This document shows, piece by piece, positions 1,783-6,102 of a stretch of 16,538 nt of DNA (positions are counted from its first letter, which is position 1; every line of letters starts with the position of its first letter). The stretch comes from a virus (Duplodnaviria; Heunggongvirae; Uroviricota; Caudoviricetes), in the IMG/VR virus record IMGVR_UViG_2541047850_000009, one strand, 5' to 3'. The translations under genes and the position numbers were made by a program. The notes beneath the pieces are model-generated. The model saw only the letters and a list, made by a program, of their open reading frames with translations, ran no database searches and was not told where the DNA came from.

Positions 1783-2051
1783 TCACGCTGGCGGCACACA
1801 GCCGCCACACATCAATCATCTGAACACAGAGCTATAACCATGAAGATTGAATATACGCCAGAACGTGGGCGGGGATTCGTTCGCCCTGGTGAAACTGAAA
1901 AACAACAAAATTGGGGTTTTTCAGGCATAACAAAAAGCGCCCAGTTACCTGAGCGCCTTTGTGAACGATTAACCTGCTGCACAAAAAATAAATATGAGCA
2001 TTGGAATTATATCAACTGTGTGAAGAAGCGCCACAATTGCCGGATTACAGG

Positions 2052-2080
2052 CAAAAAAAATGCGACCTATGATGGTCGCA
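2052..2080 (-). terminator. Rho-independent terminator for the leftward small-gene unit
   Basis: 7-bp stem TGCGACC / GGTCGCA with a 6-nt loop (2061..2080). On the minus strand it is followed by a run of 8 T (plus-strand A-run 2053..2060). Confidence 0.5.
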
Positions 2081-2156
2081 AAAATATGATATACATGTTG
2101 ATTACACTATGCATCGACAACGATGCCACATTTTTGGCTGGTTGGCAAATCTGTCA

Positions 2157-2342
2157 TCAGGGCGGACAACAACGCCACGATCTCATCTTTCTTGGGCAAT
2201 TTTTAAGAAAATCCTCAAGGGCAAATCTTTTTGGCCTTGCTTCCTGTTCATGGTCAGGCATTTCATCCATTTCTCTTAATTTTTTTTCTACCTGTCTTTC
2301 AAGTATGGATAATGCGATTTCCCGTAATTCTTCGTTGTTCAT
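2157..2342 (-). CDS. Hypothetical small protein (61 aa)
   Basis: ATG preceded by a strong RBS (CAGGAG, 6-nt spacer). Charged helical-looking N-terminus (MNNEELREIALSILERQVEKKLREMDEM). No family recognised. Confidence 0.5.
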   Translation of the reverse strand: MNNEELREIALSILERQVEKKLREMDEMPDHEQEARPKRFALEDFLKNCPRKMRSWRCCPP

Positions 2343-2399
2343 TGTCTACTCCTGTAAAGAAATGCGCCGTAGTTCCTCACACCACGGCGCTGATAGTTT

Positions 2400-2504
2400 T
2401 TATCCTTTGGGTTCTATGCCGCGTTGCTGTAATTCTTTGCGGATTATTCGCTTTATCCAGGCAGCAAGAGAATCATCGCCGTCCTGTTGTTGTGCCTTTT
2501 CCAT
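2400..2504 (-). CDS. Hypothetical very small protein (35 aa, MEKAQQQDGDDSLAAWIKRIIRKELQQRGIEPKG)
   Basis: Below the ORF-track size cut-off and found by hand translation. Same frame as and just upstream of 2157..2342 (minus), separated by two stops. Weak RBS (GGGAAAAG). Confidence 0.3.
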   Translation of the reverse strand: MEKAQQQDGDDSLAAWIKRIIRKELQQRGIEPKG

Positions 2505-2572
2505 CTTTTCCCGTAAGTCAGGATCTAAACGGAACTGGAACGGAGGATTACCACGCCTTTCGTTTTTGTGTA

Positions 2573-2628
2573 TTGACACGTTAATTACACCTCATGTAAT
2601 GTATTTATGTGTAATGACACATTACACA
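2573..2628. promoter_or_regulatory. Divergent control region with operator-like inverted repeats and a TTGACA -35-like hexamer
   Basis: TTGACA at 2573..2578. Inverted repeat ATTACA-N5-TGTAAT at 2584..2600. Perfect 21-bp palindrome TGTGTAATG-ACA-CATTACACA at 2608..2628. Four TGTAAT/ATTACA half-sites in total, placed between leftward (2504) and rightward (2709) gene starts. Confidence 0.45.
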
Positions 2629-2708
2629 CAATCAACACAAAAAGCAAAGCCCCGCACTGTAGGAGCAGTAACGGGGCTTCTAACCAACAACGTAAACTAG
2701 GAGCCGTT

Positions 2709-2906
2709 ATGGTTGCCGTAAATCATATACCACACCTTGTACACACACAAACGGCCTTTGTGTGGCGTTTTCTGGCACTGAGTGCCGGAGAATCTCAAAT
2801 CATCCACGTAACCGCCTGGACGGAACGCGAAGCGCGTAGCCGTTGCCCGTCCGGTTGTGTTGCTGTATTCGCCGCCCGTATTCGTCAGGGGTCACATCAT
2901 GCGTAA
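2709..2906 (+). CDS. Small conserved protein (66 aa), paralog of the C-terminus of the next gene; possibly Ash/Icd-like (family assignment from memory, unverified)
   Basis: ATG with AGGAG RBS at a 5-nt spacer. Shares FVWRF...VTA.TEREAR...ARIRQG..HA with 2899..3363. Stop overlaps the next start (ATGCGTAA). Confidence 0.6.
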   Translation: MVAVNHIPHLVHTQTAFVWRFLALSAGESQIIHVTAWTEREARSRCPSGCVAVFAARIRQGSHHA

Positions 2907-3363
2907 AAACCGCTTGCAAAAAATTATCACGGGGCTGTATGCTTCCCCCGTCGCCCACATGGCGACCGGGTTTGACAGCCTGAATACATCTGGCGGACAG
3001 CCGCCCACATCCGATAAGCGGTTTTTTTGTGTCCGTAAACCTACCCATACCCGCATTATGGCGGGGCGTAACGGGGGAGCCTTTGTGCTCGCTGGTTTCC
3101 AGATGACCAGTCTGTCAACCCTGTTACGTCTCGCCACCATGTTTGACAGCGTAGTAGCGAGACTCCTTAAAATTCATCTGGGAGCCTTTCACATGGCTGT
3201 ATCCGCACGCCCTTACTTTGTCTGGCGCTTTATGCAGTGCCTGACAGACAGCATTGCAATATTCACCGTTACCGCTGCCACTGAGCGCGAAGCACGCGCA
3301 CAGCTGCCGCACGCACATCTTATTTTTGTCGCCCGTATTCGTCAGGGGGTGTGCCATGCCTGA
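2899..3363 (+). CDS. Hypothetical protein (154 aa) whose C-terminal 50 aa is paralogous to the 2709..2906 product
   Basis: Translationally coupled start. C-terminus RPYFVWRF...TEREAR...ARIRQGVCHA. The same 19-nt DNA string cgcccgtattcgtcagggg occurs at 2873..2891 and 3330..3348. Confidence 0.6.
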   Translation: MRKNRLQKIITGLYASPVAHMATGFDSLNTSGGQPPTSDKRFFCVRKPTHTRIMAGRNGGAFVLAGFQMTSLSTLLRLATMFDSVVARLLKIHLGAFHMAVSARPYFVWRFMQCLTDSIAIFTVTAATEREARAQLPHAHLIFVARIRQGVCHA

Positions 3364-3676
3364 CATGACCAATTACCAGTACCTGATTAATCCGCATTTT
3401 AACTGTGAGCATGATATTGCTAAAAAGGTTTATTCCGCTGCGGATGGGGCTACTGACAATATATCAATGGCTGTTTCGTCAATTGGTAGCCTGATGTGGT
3501 ATGCGTCAGAAAATAAGGAATATGACGAAAAGGCCATGCGCATTGATATGGGTAATATCGGTTTGTTACTGGCAATGCTTGGGCAGTTTGATATTTCGTT
3601 ACGGTGCACCATTGAAAATGCCAAAGATGCATTAAATGCTATAAAGAAAGCGAATACTGATTTAAATCGGGGATAA
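3356..3676 (+). CDS. Hypothetical protein (106 aa), AT-rich gene
   Basis: ATG overlaps the preceding stop (ATGCCTGA); AGGGGG lies 8 nt upstream. GC content looks clearly lower than neighbouring genes by eye. No family recognised. Confidence 0.5.
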   Translation: MPDMTNYQYLINPHFNCEHDIAKKVYSAADGATDNISMAVSSIGSLMWYASENKEYDEKAMRIDMGNIGLLLAMLGQFDISLRCTIENAKDALNAIKKANTDLNRG

Positions 3677-3682
3677 ATAATC

Positions 3683-3982
3683 ATGAGAACATATTTATCT
3701 GGCTTGACTGCCAGCGGTTATGCACACCCCCAAATTATCCCCGGCGCTATTTATCTGGATAAGAACGGTAACAGAGTAACGGTAAAAGAACTGATGTTTG
3801 ACCGAGTGTATTTTATCCGTGATGGCTATTCATTTCTTAGTTCGCTGAACGTGGAGATCTTTATTAGCAGATTCAGGCGGGAAATCCCGCTTTCCAGAAA
3901 TAACCATGTGTCATGTATGGATGTTGATAAAAAACTACAGGAACTAAAAAACATGATTGCCGCGTGGAGAGAGCAGAAATGA
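3683..3982 (+). CDS. Hypothetical protein (99 aa), AT-rich gene
   Basis: ATG 6 nt after the previous stop. Its stop overlaps the primase start (ATGA). No family recognised. Confidence 0.5.
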   Translation: MRTYLSGLTASGYAHPQIIPGAIYLDKNGNRVTVKELMFDRVYFIRDGYSFLSSLNVEIFISRFRREIPLSRNNHVSCMDVDKKLQELKNMIAAWREQK

Positions 3983-6102
3983 AAAAAGCGCCAAATTTAA
4001 AACACCAGCCACGTGACAAAATGACGGAAGTCATCATTTTTGCGGGTAGTGATGCGTGGGCACATGCGAAGCAGTGGCAGGAACAGGACGGGCGACTGGC
4101 TGGCGACAGCGTGCCTCCTGTCTGGCTTGGAGAGCAACAACTTGCCGAACTGGATAAGCTGCAAATTGTGCCGGAAGGCCGAAAATCAGTACGCATATTC
4201 AGGGCCGGACATCTTGAGCCAGTAATGATCAAGGCGATTGGTCAGAAGCTGGCGGCGGCAGGCGTACAGGATGCAAATTTTTACCCTGATGGAATGCACG
4301 GTCAGGAGGTGGAGAACTGGCGCGAATATCTGGCCCGTGAGCGGCAGAATCTTTCTGATGGTCTGGTTATTGAGTTTCCGGTAAAGAAAAAAGATACCGG
4401 AAGCCATAGCGATGACGAATTAAAGCCACGCGTTGAAAGTCGCGCCGATGGTGTTTTCTGGGTAACGCCCAAAGTGGATAAGCAGTCAGGCGAAATTATC
4501 CGGCCTGAGACGTGGTTATGTTCTCCGCTTGAACTACTGGGAACGGGGACGATCGGTAAAGAGCATTACCGCGTGATGCGCTGGAAAAAAACCGCAAACC
4601 ATGAAGTCATCACAATGGCGATCCCGTGTGGTGGTATCGGCGACCGTGACGGCTGGCGGTTACTTAAAGATCACGGGCTGAACGTGACAACCAACGGCAA
4701 ATACAGGGCAATCCTGGCGGACTGGATGCAGTTAAGCGGAAGCCATGAGGAATGGCAGTTAAGCACAACAACGGGCTGGCATTTTGGCGCGTACATCATG
4801 CCGGACGGTTCGATCATTGGTGAATCTGAAAAACCGATCCTGTTTACCGGAAAAAGCGCCGCGATTAACGGTTATTCCGTGGCGGGCACGGCGGATGGCT
4901 GGCGCGACAGCGTGGCGCGGCTGGCTGGCGGTAATGCCTCAATGATGCTGGGTGTGGCAACGTCACTGGCAGCGCCTTTAATTGGCCTTGTGGGTGCTGA
5001 CGGCTTCGGGGTGCATCTTTTCGAACAGTCATCGGCAGGTAAGACCACCACGCAGAACATCGCATCAAGTTTATGGGGAGAGCCGGACGCGCAGCGGCTG
5101 ACCTGGTACGGCACGGCGTTAGGTATTGCCAATGAGGCCGAGGCCCATAATGACGGGCTTTTACCACTGGATGAGATAGGCCAGGCCGGAAATGCGCGGG
5201 AAGTGTCAACGTCTGCTTATACGCTGTTTAACGGTTCAGGGAAATTGCAGGGGGCGAAGGATGGCGGCAACAGGGAGATCAAACACTGGCGAACGGTGGC
5301 AATCAGCACCGGAGAAATGGACGTTGAGACATTCCTCAAAAGTGAGGGGATAAAAGTTAAGGCGGGGCAGCTTGTCCGACTGCTTAACGTTCCGATGGAA
5401 AAAGCCACGAAATTTCACGAATACAGCAACGGTAAGGAACATGCTGACGCGTTAAAGGATGCCTGGACAGCAAATCACGGGGCGGCGGGTCGTGAGTGGG
5501 TTAAATGGCTGGCAGGCCACCAGCAGGAGGCAAAGGATACGGTAAGGGAATGCCGCGAACGGTGGCGCAACCTGATACCGGAGAGCTACGGCGAGCAGGT
5601 CCACCGCGTGGGTGAACGTTTCGCCATACTGGAGGCCGCGCTTGTGCTTTCCGGTCATGTAACTGGCTGGGTCGTGCAGGAATGCCGCGACGCGATACAG
5701 CATAACTTTAATGCCTGGGTGAAGGAGTTCGGCACGGGTAACAGGGAATTTAAACAGATGGTTGAACAGGCTGAGGCGTTTTTGTCGTCGTTTGGGTTTA
5801 GCCGCTACCTTCCGTACCCCAATACAGATGAGCGTGATTTACCGATTAAAGAGCTTGCCGGATACAGAAAAGGGAGCATTCGCAACGAAGATGACGAGAT
5901 GCGCTATTACACGTTCCCGCACGTGTTTGAGAGTGAGATAGCGAAGGGATTTAATCCGGCGCATTTTGCGCGTGCCCTGGATGCTGCCGGAATGCTGGAG
6001 AAGGGAAGCGATCGCCGATACAAAAAAAAGGCGCTGGGCAAGATTGGGGGTAAGCAGCATGTTTTTTACGTGCTGATGTTCCAGCCTGATGATGAAGATT
6101 AA
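3979..6102 (+). CDS. Primase-helicase type replication protein (DUF927 / D5-like NTPase, P4 alpha-like)
   Basis: 707-aa ORF. P-loop-like FEQSSAGKTT and Walker-B-like LLPLDEIG in the central region. Sits immediately upstream of an iteron array. Domain family assigned from memory of typical satellite annotations. Confidence 0.75.
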   Translation: MKKAPNLKHQPRDKMTEVIIFAGSDAWAHAKQWQEQDGRLAGDSVPPVWLGEQQLAELDKLQIVPEGRKSVRIFRAGHLEPVMIKAIGQKLAAAGVQDANFYPDGMHGQEVENWREYLARERQNLSDGLVIEFPVKKKDTGSHSDDELKPRVESRADGVFWVTPKVDKQSGEIIRPETWLCSPLELLGTGTIGKEHYRVMRWKKTANHEVITMAIPCGGIGDRDGWRLLKDHGLNVTTNGKYRAILADWMQLSGSHEEWQLSTTTGWHFGAYIMPDGSIIGESEKPILFTGKSAAINGYSVAGTADGWRDSVARLAGGNASMMLGVATSLAAPLIGLVGADGFGVHLFEQSSAGKTTTQNIASSLWGEPDAQRLTWYGTALGIANEAEAHNDGLLPLDEIGQAGNAREVSTSAYTLFNGSGKLQGAKDGGNREIKHWRTVAISTGEMDVETFLKSEGIKVKAGQLVRLLNVPMEKATKFHEYSNGKEHADALKDAWTANHGAAGREWVKWLAGHQQEAKDTVRECRERWRNLIPESYGEQVHRVGERFAILEAALVLSGHVTGWVVQECRDAIQHNFNAWVKEFGTGNREFKQMVEQAEAFLSSFGFSRYLPYPNTDERDLPIKELAGYRKGSIRNEDDEMRYYTFPHVFESEIAKGFNPAHFARALDAAGMLEKGSDRRYKKKALGKIGGKQHVFYVLMFQPDDED

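What the first reader, a model, noticed from the sequence alone, without database searches (positions are those of the whole stretch)
2157..2708. Divergent operator-like control region with a leftward two-gene micro-operon and no recognisable repressor
Between the leftward start at 2504 and the rightward start at 2709 lie four TGTAAT/ATTACA half-sites, including a perfect 21-bp palindrome (2608..2628) and a TTGACA hexamer. This looks like a dimeric-repressor operator overlapping divergent promoters. Yet the leftward unit encodes only two tiny proteins (35 and 61 aa) with no obvious helix-turn-helix, and it ends at a clean terminator (2052..2080). The palindromes may be bound by a helper-phage or host protein, or one of the tiny proteins may be an unconventional regulator.
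Basis: partly seen in the sequence, partly recalled or inferred. Interest (0 to 1): 0.5.

Follow-up and report, generated by a model that had tools for sequence, protein, structure and literature searches.

The report
Arc-like repressor, operators and antisense RNA
The operator-like repeats are real, but the "missing" repressor is the neighbouring 59-residue Arc-like (ribbon-helix-helix) protein, overlooked because its GTG start codon was missed, and next to it lies a conserved, undescribed antisense RNA; together they probably keep the replication genes of this phage satellite switched off.

Summary
Four TGTAAT/ATTACA hexamers, a 9+3+9 inverted repeat and a TTGACA lie at the stated coordinates, and no shuffle reproduces the cluster. 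The reading "no recognisable repressor" does not hold. The first leftward ORF starts at GTG 2579 (59 aa, not 35). It belongs to a conserved family with a ribbon-helix-helix fold and a PHROG "Arc-like repressor" match.

Across about 80 related loci, the protein's DNA-reading beta-strand comes in five classes. Each class has its own 11-12 bp palindrome, usually at -41 and -11 from the start codon.

TTGACA is the -35 of the rightward promoter. It is built into repressor codons 1-3 in 60 of 76 loci. The operators lie in that promoter's spacer and at its start site.

The region also holds a strand-specific terminator hairpin (59 G·U against 4 A·C). Together with a fixed -10 box inside the first codons of the rightward gene, it predicts a roughly 75-nt antisense RNA over that gene's ribosome site. 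This RNA is absent from Rfam.

The 61-aa ORF is an orphan. All binding and transcription are inferred, not measured. The module is a new member of a known kind, resembling P22 immI and pMV158 CopG/RNAII.

The parts
2400..2579 (-). Gene for a 59-aa ribbon-helix-helix (Arc-like) repressor with a GTG start. Predicted beta-strand is PPFQFRL (residues 12-18); helices at 20-33 and 38-53.
2573..2578 (+). -35 hexamer TTGACA of the rightward promoter P_R, encoded on the opposite strand by repressor codons 1-3 (G-TG TCA A).
   Evidence: In 60 of 76 distinct related loci the best rightward sigma-70 match has TTGACA at this exact place, in all five repressor classes. Near-invariant column block in the class A alignment.
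2597..2602 (+). -10 hexamer TAATGT of P_R with an 18-nt spacer (alternative register TGTAAT 2595-2600, 16-nt spacer). Predicted start about 2609.
   Evidence: TAATGT/TAGTGT in class A; TATAGT, TATGAT, TATTAT or TATATT (11/12 matches) in other classes at the same place. A related copy has TTGACA-16-TATAAT (L002). Transcription not measured.
2579..2590 (.). Proximal operator. Read in the repressor's direction it is GTGTAATTAACG. It lies in the P_R spacer and between the repressor's SD (GAGG) and its start codon.
   Evidence: Classes C and D (and some B/E loci) have a full class-specific palindrome at this position (-11); in class A the site is degenerate.
2609..2620 (.). Distal operator GTGTAATGACAC, one mismatch from the palindrome GTGTAATTACAC, inside inverted repeat 2608-2628. 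It covers +1..+12 of P_R and the candidate -10 of the repressor's own promoter.
   Evidence: 39 of 43 class A loci have this 12-mer (2 or fewer mismatches), nearly all at -41 or -40; none of 23 B/E loci do.
2568..2579 (.). Third operator-like 12-mer GTGTATTGACAC inside repressor codons 1-4 (weak evidence).
   Evidence: 2 mismatches. Synonymous positions of these codons are nearly invariant.
2619..2624 (-). Candidate -10 (TAATGT) of the repressor's own promoter P_L. The -35 would be TTGCTT at 2647-2642. This is a weak match.
   Evidence: About 18 of 76 loci have their best leftward match with the -10 ending at -36 to -40. In the window it scores only about 6/12 by my own count. Read-through from the antisense promoter is an alternative source of repressor mRNA.
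2636..2680 (-). Intrinsic terminator read leftward: hairpin 2680-2646 plus a U-run (GCUUUUUGUG).
   Evidence: Scan. RNAalifold: 14 pairs, 11 with compensatory changes. 59 G·U against 4 A·C; alifold -20.3 (minus strand) against -8.5 kcal/mol (plus strand). T-rich tail in 38 of 38 sequences.
2682..2714 (-). 5' stem-loop of the antisense RNA. The loop carries CUCC (anti-Shine-Dalgarno) and the 5' arm carries CAU (anti-start codon).
   Evidence: Fold, z = -3.15. Helix 1: 88.5% paired, 3 of 5 pairs with double changes.
2722..2727 (-). -10 box TATGAT of the antisense promoter, inside codons 5-7 of the rightward gene (weak -35 TTGTGT at 2750-2745).
   Evidence: 67 of 75 distinct loci have a TAnnnT hexamer at the same offset; it is TATAAT in six, including Pasteurellaceae loci and E. 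coli Nissle. The surrounding DNA is conserved whatever protein is encoded.
2640..2715 (-). Predicted cis-antisense RNA of about 75 nt, complementary to the leader, SD (AGGAG 2699-2703) and ATG (2709-2711) of the rightward operon.
   Evidence: Covariance model R1 finds one copy on the repressor strand in nearly every related locus: 83 hits in 85 sources. No Rfam family matches. Ends are inferred, not mapped.
2709..2906 (+). First rightward gene (Icd-like, 65 aa), the predicted target of both the repressor and the antisense RNA.
   Evidence: NF033153, E 5.8e-18.
2364..2390 (-). 10-bp hairpin just after the repressor stop codon, with a weak U-tract (AUUUCUUUA). Probably a partial terminator.
   Evidence: A terminator-like hairpin follows the repressor gene in 24 of 79 related loci.
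2157..2342 (-). 61-aa orphan ORF. It is not a conserved part of the module.
   Evidence: No family hit. 2 homologues. The downstream slot holds varied ORFs in relatives.
2052..2080 (-). Strong intrinsic terminator ending the leftward unit.
   Evidence: 7 pairs, T8.
2937..3141 (+). Context: second control layer of P1/P4 type. C4 target a1/b1 (2937-2986), terminator, then C4 antisense RNA (3054-3141).
   Evidence: Rfam RF03163 46.8 bits and RF01695 72.6 bits. 76-80% identity to the P1, P7 and D6 c4 regions.

Best explanation
Positions 2568-2727 are the master control switch of a capsid-forming phage satellite.

1. The 59-aa leftward gene (GTG 2579) encodes a ribbon-helix-helix (Arc-like) repressor.
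2. Its dimers bind 12-bp palindromes of the type GTGTAATTACAC.
   - The distal site is 2609-2620.
   - The proximal site is 2579-2590.
   - A third site at 2568-2579 is possible.
3. The rightward promoter P_R has its -35 (TTGACA 2573-2578) written into repressor codons 1-3, and its -10 at 2597-2602.
4. The proximal operator fills the P_R spacer and the distal one covers its start site. Bound repressor therefore blocks RNA polymerase at P_R. It also blocks the repressor's own weak leftward promoter, which gives autoregulation.
5. A second lock is a leftward antisense RNA of about 75 nt.
   - It starts from a -10 box (2727-2722) inside the first codons of the rightward gene.
   - It ends at the hairpin and U-run at 2680-2636.
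   - Its 5' hairpin loop presents an anti-Shine-Dalgarno sequence to the complementary loop of the mRNA leader. This would block translation of the first rightward gene, or trigger its decay.
6. In this island a P1/P4-type C4 RNA downstream adds a third lock.

Shown here: the sequence features, their conservation, the covariation and the predicted fold. Inferred: DNA binding, repression, the transcript ends, and how the helper phage or AlpA lifts the block.
For: Repressor identity:
- The GTG or ATG start and the N-terminus are conserved. RefSeq annotates the 59-aa CDS.
- The AF2 model has two helices after an extended N-terminus.
- phrog_228 'Arc-like repressor', E 2.5e-6.

Repressor-operator pairing:
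- There are five beta-strand classes, each with its own palindrome. Most sites lie near -41 (range about -38 to -60) and at -11.
- The A motif is found in 39 of 43 class A loci and 0 of 23 B/E loci.
- The C-terminal helix and the flanking RNA element stay the same across classes.
- In other E. coli islands a different RHH-like protein (YlcI/YnfO family) with different repeats (GTGAATACC) replaces the cassette, next to the same hairpin.

Promoter P_R: TTGACA is at the identical place in 60 of 76 loci, with a -10 located 17-18 bp downstream scoring up to 11/12. One variant reads TTGACA-16-TATAAT.

Antisense RNA:
- The hairpin is strand-asymmetric and followed by a T-run.
- Covariation: 93.5% of cells paired, 13 pairs with double changes, and 0 of 500 shuffles reached any measure.
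- A TAnnnT box sits at a fixed offset in 67 of 75 loci.
- The covariance model gave 83 hits in 85 sources, all on the repressor strand.

The hexamer cluster is non-random.
Against: - There are no expression or binding data.
- No Pfam RHH model is matched, and NCBIfam hits are below cut-off. Profile searches of the PDB by sequence find nothing meaningful.
- Foldseek E-values are about 1 because the protein is so short.
- The beta-strand is not formed in the monomer model.
- The class A proximal site is degenerate (3 mismatches).
- The class A P_R -10 (TAATGT) and the repressor's own promoter are weak matches. The standard scan reports no promoter in 2505-2708.
- Operator and gene are tightly linked, so part of the class-to-motif association could reflect shared descent.
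- The -35 of the antisense promoter is poor (3-4 of 6).
Confidence: 0.7

Rival explanations
1. One reading: the palindromes are operators for a helper-phage or host protein, and the island has no repressor of its own at this locus.
For: No Pfam DNA-binding domain is detected in either small ORF. The literature says the existence of a repressor in Gram-negative PICIs is unclear and that AlpA is an activator (PMC6092414).
Against: With the right start codon the adjacent protein is Arc-like. The palindromes change together with that protein's beta-strand, while a host factor would be constant across these hosts. Whole repressor-plus-operator cassettes are exchanged as units.
Confidence: 0.07
2. 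The RHH protein is only the autoregulating antitoxin or regulator of a small leftward cargo cassette (a toxin-antitoxin-like or moron unit with the 61-aa ORF). It does not control the rightward operon.
For: Weak similarity to the VapB, HicB and RHH_7 antitoxin-type families. JGI names some homologues 'predicted HicB family'. Variable small ORFs, some lipoprotein-like, follow the gene in relatives.
Against: There is no conserved downstream partner. The 61-aa ORF has 2 homologues. 24 of 79 loci have a terminator directly after the RHH gene. The conserved neighbour is the divergent promoter, whose -35 lies inside the RHH start codon region and whose spacer and start site carry the operators.
Confidence: 0.1
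3. The repeated hexamers are just promoter elements: the mirrored TGTAATGT motifs are the -10 regions of two overlapping, oppositely oriented promoters, not protein-binding sites.
For: TGTAATGT occurs at 2595-2602 (+) and 2626-2619 (-), exactly where the -10 hexamers of P_R and of a candidate P_L fall.
Against: In other classes the -10 and -35 hexamers stay sigma-70-like while separate class-specific palindromes appear (GGTAATTACC, TTGTAATTACAA, GTGTCAGACAC), each usually in two copies. This dual use is compatible with the main explanation.
Confidence: 0.08
4. The conserved hairpin 2646-2680 acts in the rightward mRNA leader (stability or translational control), and no antisense RNA exists.
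For: The hairpin can also form on the plus strand in this window, where the arms are perfect. A leader hairpin holding the SD in its loop is also predicted on the plus strand.
Against: 59 G·U pairs against 4 A·C on the minus strand. The consensus fold is -20.3 against -8.5 kcal/mol. 34 of 38 sequences are more stable on the minus strand. The U-run is on the minus strand only. A positionally fixed -10 box lies upstream on that strand.
Confidence: 0.12

Closest known systems
Phage P22 immI region (Arc and Mnt ribbon-helix-helix repressors, overlapping Pant/Pmnt promoters, sar antisense RNA). The comparison rests on my own knowledge of the P22 literature.
   Same: A small RHH repressor binds palindromic operators in a region of overlapping, oppositely oriented promoters. 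A short cis-antisense RNA covers the ribosome-binding site of the first gene of the repressed operon. The best profile hit of the protein is 'Arc-like repressor', and Arc structures are among the fold matches.
   Different: There is no detectable sequence homology to Arc or Mnt beyond the fold. The repressed operon encodes Icd-like proteins, C4 RNA and a primase-helicase, not an antirepressor. The -35 of the target promoter is inside the repressor's start codon region. The antisense promoter lies inside the target gene's first codons.
Plasmid copy-control pairs: pMV158 CopG (RHH) with RNAII, and R1 CopB with CopA. From my own knowledge.
   Same: A tiny transcriptional repressor and a countertranscript RNA jointly limit expression of a replication initiator. 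The antisense RNA has a 5' recognition hairpin and a terminator hairpin. CopG and the Sulfolobus copy-control protein ORF56 are among the fold matches.
   Different: Here the repressor gene is divergent from the replication operon rather than its first gene. The element is an integrated satellite, so the circuit probably sets quiescence versus induction rather than steady-state copy number.
P1/P7 immI and P4 immunity (C4/CI antisense RNA with icd)
   Same: The downstream part of the rightward operon is a true homologue: C4 RNA at 72.6 bits, a1/b1 target at 46.8 bits, and Icd-like ORFs.
   Different: C4 acts in trans on a2/b2-type sites and runs in the same direction as its target. The new RNA is a true cis-antisense transcript. 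C4 is present in only 1 of 20 related loci tested, so the two systems are independent. P1 controls immI with C1, not with an RHH protein.
YlcI/YnfO family proteins of E. coli prophages and islands
   Same: They occupy the same position, divergent from the same hairpin and Icd-like gene, in many E. coli islands including strain Nissle. There is a weak match of the 59-aa protein to NF041551 (E 5e-4) and to phrog_949. An in-register hhalign alignment gives 33% identity over 40 residues.
   Different: Those proteins are 101 aa, against 59 aa here. Scores are below family cut-offs and the hhalign E-value is 0.11. Their repeats differ (GTGAATACC). The family itself has no tested function.

Membership tests
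Ribbon-helix-helix (Arc/MetJ/CopG) superfamily | An N-terminal beta-strand followed by two helices, in about 45 residues | tested here: met
Ribbon-helix-helix (Arc/MetJ/CopG) superfamily | Significant match to a curated RHH sequence model | tested here: inconclusive
   Pfam: none above cut-off (RHH_7 E 0.033 in 1 of 30 members; HicB E 0.054 in 4 of 30). NCBIfam YlcI_YnfO_N scores 20 bits against a 30-bit cut-off. PHROG 228 'Arc-like repressor' E 2.5e-6. PDB sequence searches were negative.
Ribbon-helix-helix (Arc/MetJ/CopG) superfamily | Forms an obligate dimer whose paired beta-strands insert into the major groove | not testable with these tools
   Only a monomer could be modelled. In that model the strand is unpaired and of low confidence (pLDDT 49-66 for residues 1-20).
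Ribbon-helix-helix (Arc/MetJ/CopG) superfamily | Binds repeated or palindromic operators at its own promoter | tested here: inconclusive
   Class-specific palindromes co-vary with the beta-strand at fixed positions. This is strong comparative support, but there is no binding assay.
Cis-encoded antisense (countertranscript) RNA | Own promoter on the strand opposite the target | tested here: inconclusive
   A TAnnnT -10 box lies at a fixed offset in 67 of 75 loci, and it is TATAAT in six. The -35 is weak. No transcript data.
Cis-encoded antisense (countertranscript) RNA | Intrinsic terminator on that strand, and a conserved structure with covariation | tested here: met
   G·U asymmetry of 59 against 4, a U-run, 13 pairs with double changes, and 0 of 500 shuffles reaching the observed values.
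Cis-encoded antisense (countertranscript) RNA | Overlaps the translation-initiation region of the target | tested here: met
   The predicted RNA (2715-2640) covers the ATG at 2709-2711 and the SD at 2699-2703.
Any Rfam family | Score at or above the gathering threshold | tested here: not met
   There is no hit in 2636-2727 at gathering score. The best is rnk_pseudo at 24 bits against a threshold of 55.
Type II toxin-antitoxin operon (RHH antitoxin with toxin) | A conserved toxin gene immediately downstream, co-transcribed | tested here: not met
   The downstream ORFs are variable or absent. The 61-aa ORF has 2 homologues and no family. A hairpin separates the two genes.
Capsid-forming PICI (context of the element) | Integrase, AlpA, a replication module, and its own capsid, protease, portal, connector, HNH, TerS and TerL genes, without tail or lysis genes | tested here: met
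   The list of defining features comes from preprint 10.1101/2025.02.11.637232.

The most novel reading that the evidence does not exclude
The RHH repressor and cis-antisense RNA module may be the long-sought repression system that keeps Gram-negative PICIs and cf-PICIs quiescent. Its exchangeable beta-strand and operator cassettes would define 'immunity groups' among satellites. Induction by the helper phage, directly or through AlpA, would work by overcoming this double lock.
Probability: 0.35. Interest if true: 0.7.

Novelty: new member of a known kind. Interest (0 to 1): 0.55.

Why it matters
For Gram-negative phage-inducible islands only an activator (AlpA) is known. [quoted passage not shown] The cf-PICI papers I read mention no repressor.

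This locus supplies a concrete, widely conserved candidate. It is a tiny Arc-like repressor with readable specificity classes, wired onto the replication-operon promoter, together with an undescribed antisense RNA over that operon's ribosome site.

The RNA element accompanies the repressor in Enterobacterales, Orbaceae and Pasteurellaceae. About a quarter of complete E. coli genomes match some part of the 2000-3400 query, mostly the hairpin and Icd-like segment.

The model is directly testable with a few reporters and gel shifts. The beta-strand-to-operator pairs would also make a compact set of orthogonal repressors.

Tried and rejected
- Pfam and NCBIfam scans of both small ORFs gave no hit above cut-off.
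- PDB sequence searches with the single protein and with the profile gave nothing meaningful.
- The standard promoter scan found no promoter in 2505-2708, because it requires at least 4 of 6 matches in each hexamer. A relaxed, position-aware comparison across loci was needed.
- Rfam searches of the whole window and of 2560-2780 at E up to 10 gave only chance hits for the antisense region.
- The homologue search with the 61-aa ORF found 2 proteins, so no function can be proposed.
- A search for further GTGTAATTACAC-like sites in the window found none beyond chance outside the control region. There is thus no sign that the repressor also controls the packaging operon.
- The idea that the RHH/antisense module depends on C4 was rejected, since C4 was present in 1 of 20 loci.
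- Literature searches for a described repressor or antisense RNA in cf-PICIs or PICIs found none.
- The 286-aa plus-strand ORF 1840-2700 was dismissed as spurious. It runs antisense through two genes and across two terminators.

Full report
CONTEXT. The window is an integrated satellite of about 15 kb.
- It carries a tyrosine integrase (1-1230) and AlpA (1594-1782).
- A rightward operon holds two Icd-like ORFs, a DUF4222 protein, a DUF927 primase-helicase (3964-6102) and an SSB.
- Further on are its own capsid, prohead protease, portal, head-completion, connector, HNH, TerS and TerL genes, with no tail genes.
- This is the architecture described for capsid-forming PICIs (10.1101/2025.02.11.637232).
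- A near-identical copy (98.8%) lies next to roxA in E. coli E110019.

OBSERVATION.
- The four TGTAAT/ATTACA hexamers (2584, 2595, 2610, 2621), the TTGACA (2573-2578), the inverted repeat and the terminator at 2052-2080 are all present.
- Four hexamers within 50 bp never arose in 2000 whole-window or 5000 local dinucleotide-preserving shuffles.
- The '21-bp palindrome' is really 9+3+9.

THE MISSED REPRESSOR.
- The first leftward ORF runs on upstream of ATG 2504 to GTG 2579, giving 59 aa.
- A search found 117 homologues across Enterobacterales, Orbaceae and Pasteurellaceae, most of them exactly 59 aa. The extra 24 N-terminal residues (MSTHKNERRGNPPFQFRLDPELR) are the best-conserved part of one subfamily.
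- In 80 genomic loci the start is GTG or ATG at the same place. RefSeq annotates the 59-aa CDS.
- The pattern is a short strand (PPFQFRL), then helix, turn (DGD-S) and helix.
- AlphaFold gives two confident helices after an extended N-terminus.
- Foldseek hits are almost exclusively ribbon-helix-helix proteins: NikR N-domain, Arc, CopG, CopA_SO, AmrZ, PutA and ParD, at 0.7-0.9 A over 35-39 residues.
- PHROG 228 'Arc-like repressor' matches at E 2.5e-6.
- Pfam and NCBIfam do not reach their cut-offs. Membership therefore rests on fold plus one profile match.

REPRESSOR AND OPERATOR CHANGE TOGETHER.
- The homologues share an almost identical second helix (WIKRIIRKELQ.RGIEPKG) but fall into five beta-strand classes.
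- Each class has its own palindrome upstream of the gene, usually once about 40 bp upstream and once overlapping the SD-start spacer:
  - PPFQFRL with GTGTAATTACAC;
  - PQYQMRL with (T)GGTAATTACC(A);
  - DQYQIRL with TTGTAATTACAA;
  - KQIALRV and KQIAFRV with GTGTC(A/T)GACAC or AGTGTCATACACT.
- The class A 12-mer (2 or fewer mismatches) is present in 39 of 43 class A loci and in 0 of 23 B/E loci.
- Several half-sites have changed in concert while the flanking RNA element and the C-terminal helix stayed put. Simple linkage is therefore a poor explanation.
- By inference from RHH geometry, the alternate residues 13, 15 and 17 face the DNA.
  - They read P-Q-R in class A, Q-Q-R in C and D, and Q-A-R in B and E.
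  - Q15 goes with a TAATTA core, and A15 with a C(A/T)G core.
- In other E. coli islands, including strain Nissle, a 101-aa YlcI/YnfO-family protein occupies the same slot next to the same hairpin and Icd-like gene. It also has an RHH-like sequence pattern and its own repeats (GTGAATACC).
- The repressor-operator unit is thus an exchangeable cassette. Most partial E. coli matches begin at query positions 635-708 (window about 2634-2707), at or just right of the terminator's T-run.

THE RIGHTWARD PROMOTER.
- In 60 of 76 distinct loci, and in all classes, the best rightward sigma-70 match has a perfect TTGACA formed by the reverse complement of the repressor's (A/G)TG-TCA-A.
- A -10 follows 17-18 bp downstream. 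It scores up to 11/12 in classes B-D and reads TAATGT in class A.
- These codons are nearly invariant at synonymous sites.
- One duplicated copy reads TTGACA-16-TATAAT.
- In the window this gives a -35 at 2573-2578, a -10 at 2597-2602 and a start near 2609.
- The proximal operator (2579-2590) fills the spacer, and the distal operator (2609-2620) covers +1 to +12. That geometry predicts direct repression.
- The repressor's own promoter is weak. The best candidate has its -10 at 2624-2619, a position shared by about 18 loci. Read-through from the antisense promoter is an alternative source of repressor mRNA.

THE ANTISENSE RNA.
- Between the operators and the rightward start codon lies a hairpin (2646-2680).
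- In 38 diverse loci it keeps its pairing through compensatory changes: 14 pairs, 11 of them with double changes.
- It is strongly strand-specific. There are 59 G·U against 4 A·C on the repressor strand. The consensus energy is -20.3 against -8.5 kcal/mol. A T-run follows on that strand only.
- A terminator pointing left, upstream of the repressor's promoter, implies a transcript arriving from the right.
- At a fixed offset upstream there is a TAnnnT -10 box in 67 of 75 distinct loci. The hexamers include TATGCT, TAGACT, TATGAT and TATAAT. The window has TATGAT at 2727-2722.
- This box lies inside the first codons of the rightward gene. The N-terminal peptide (..TQTRPKF..) and its DNA are conserved whether the gene is Icd-like or a primase.
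- Between promoter and terminator, a stem-loop presents CCUC/CUCC in its loop and CAU in its stem, again with covariation.
- Over the whole structure 93.5% of cells are paired, 13 pairs have double changes, and 0 of 500 shuffles reach any measure. Slid controls fall to 37-51% paired.
- A covariance model finds one copy per control region, always on the repressor strand. It gave 83 hits in 85 sources, including loci not used to build it.
- Rfam has no such family.
- The predicted RNA of about 75 nt (about 2715 to 2640) is fully complementary to the SD and ATG of the first rightward gene. Its form is that of a classical countertranscript.

OTHER LAYERS AND NON-PARTS.
- Downstream, Rfam detects the P1/P4-type C4 RNA and its a1/b1 target. 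Only 1 of 20 related loci has C4, so it is an add-on.
- The 61-aa ORF has no family and two homologues. It is separated from the repressor gene by a hairpin, and in relatives it is replaced by varied small ORFs or by a terminator.

COMPARISON AND VERDICT.
- In logic the module resembles P22 immI (Arc/Mnt and sar) and plasmid copy-control pairs (CopG and RNAII).
- It is a new member of those known kinds, not a new kind.
- Its interest lies in where it sits. For Gram-negative PICIs the literature knows only the activator AlpA and calls a repressor 'unclear'.
- Nothing here was measured. Binding, repression, transcript ends and the induction route remain inference.

Noticed in passing
window 2937-3141 (+): A complete P1/P7/P4-type RNA immunity unit lies between two Icd-like ORFs: the c4 a1/b1 target (46.8 bits), an isrK-like terminator (35 bits, below threshold) and C4 antisense RNA (72.6 bits). 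It is 76-80% identical to the P1, P7 and D6 c4 regions.
   Followed up: partly
window 2571-2579 (-) and related loci: The conserved N-terminus M-S-(T/I) of the repressor seems dictated by DNA. Its codons are the reverse complement of the -35 TTGACA of the divergent promoter, and synonymous positions are nearly invariant.
   Followed up: yes
window 2709-2760 (+); L003-L082: The first roughly 12 residues of the rightward gene (MAD..TQTRPKF / MVAVNHIPHLVHTQT) are conserved whether the protein is Icd-like or a primase fusion (Xenorhabdus loci). This fits constraint by the embedded antisense promoter rather than by protein function.
   Followed up: partly
L002 3074-4463 (E. coli 2013C-4282): Two control modules lie in tandem. 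The left one has the 59-aa repressor, its operators, the antisense element and a truncated rightward gene. The right, active one has a YlcI/YnfO-type protein with GTGAATACC repeats. This looks like a footprint of cassette replacement by recombination.
   Followed up: partly
window 2660-2674 and 2698-2712: A 15-nt direct repeat (TAGGAGCAGTAACGG / TAGGAGCCGTTATGG) puts a copy of the Shine-Dalgarno region into the loop of the terminator hairpin. The antisense RNA of this island would therefore carry two anti-SD loops. The repeat is not seen in most relatives.
   Followed up: no
window 1840-2700 (+): A 286-aa open frame runs antisense through both leftward genes and across two terminators. It is almost certainly spurious but could mislead gene callers.
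   Followed up: no
L005, L009, L019, L046 (just downstream of the repressor gene): Several relatives carry a 45-55-aa ORF with a lipoprotein-type signal (for example MKKIIILAAVLIVAAFLLKSC...) in the slot held by the 61-aa ORF here. This may be a variable cargo position.
   Followed up: no
L055 5912-5977 and L065 5529-5594: The Rfam int-alpA RNA motif (RF02996) is present in Pasteurellaceae relatives. It was not detected between int and alpA of this window.
   Followed up: no
window 2709-2906 (+): The Icd-like protein also matches PHROG families labelled 'transcriptional repressor' (phrog_1743 E 1.8e-22, phrog_6196 E 3.3e-17). The label conflicts with the NCBI name 'host cell division inhibitor', and I did not check it.
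   Followed up: no
window 2044-2049, 2101-2106, 2428-2433: Three more TGTAAT/ATTACA hexamers lie in the leftward unit, so 7 of the window's 12 fall within 2044-2626. None forms a 12-mer operator-like site, and they may simply reflect the AT-rich composition (42% GC against 51%).
   Followed up: partly
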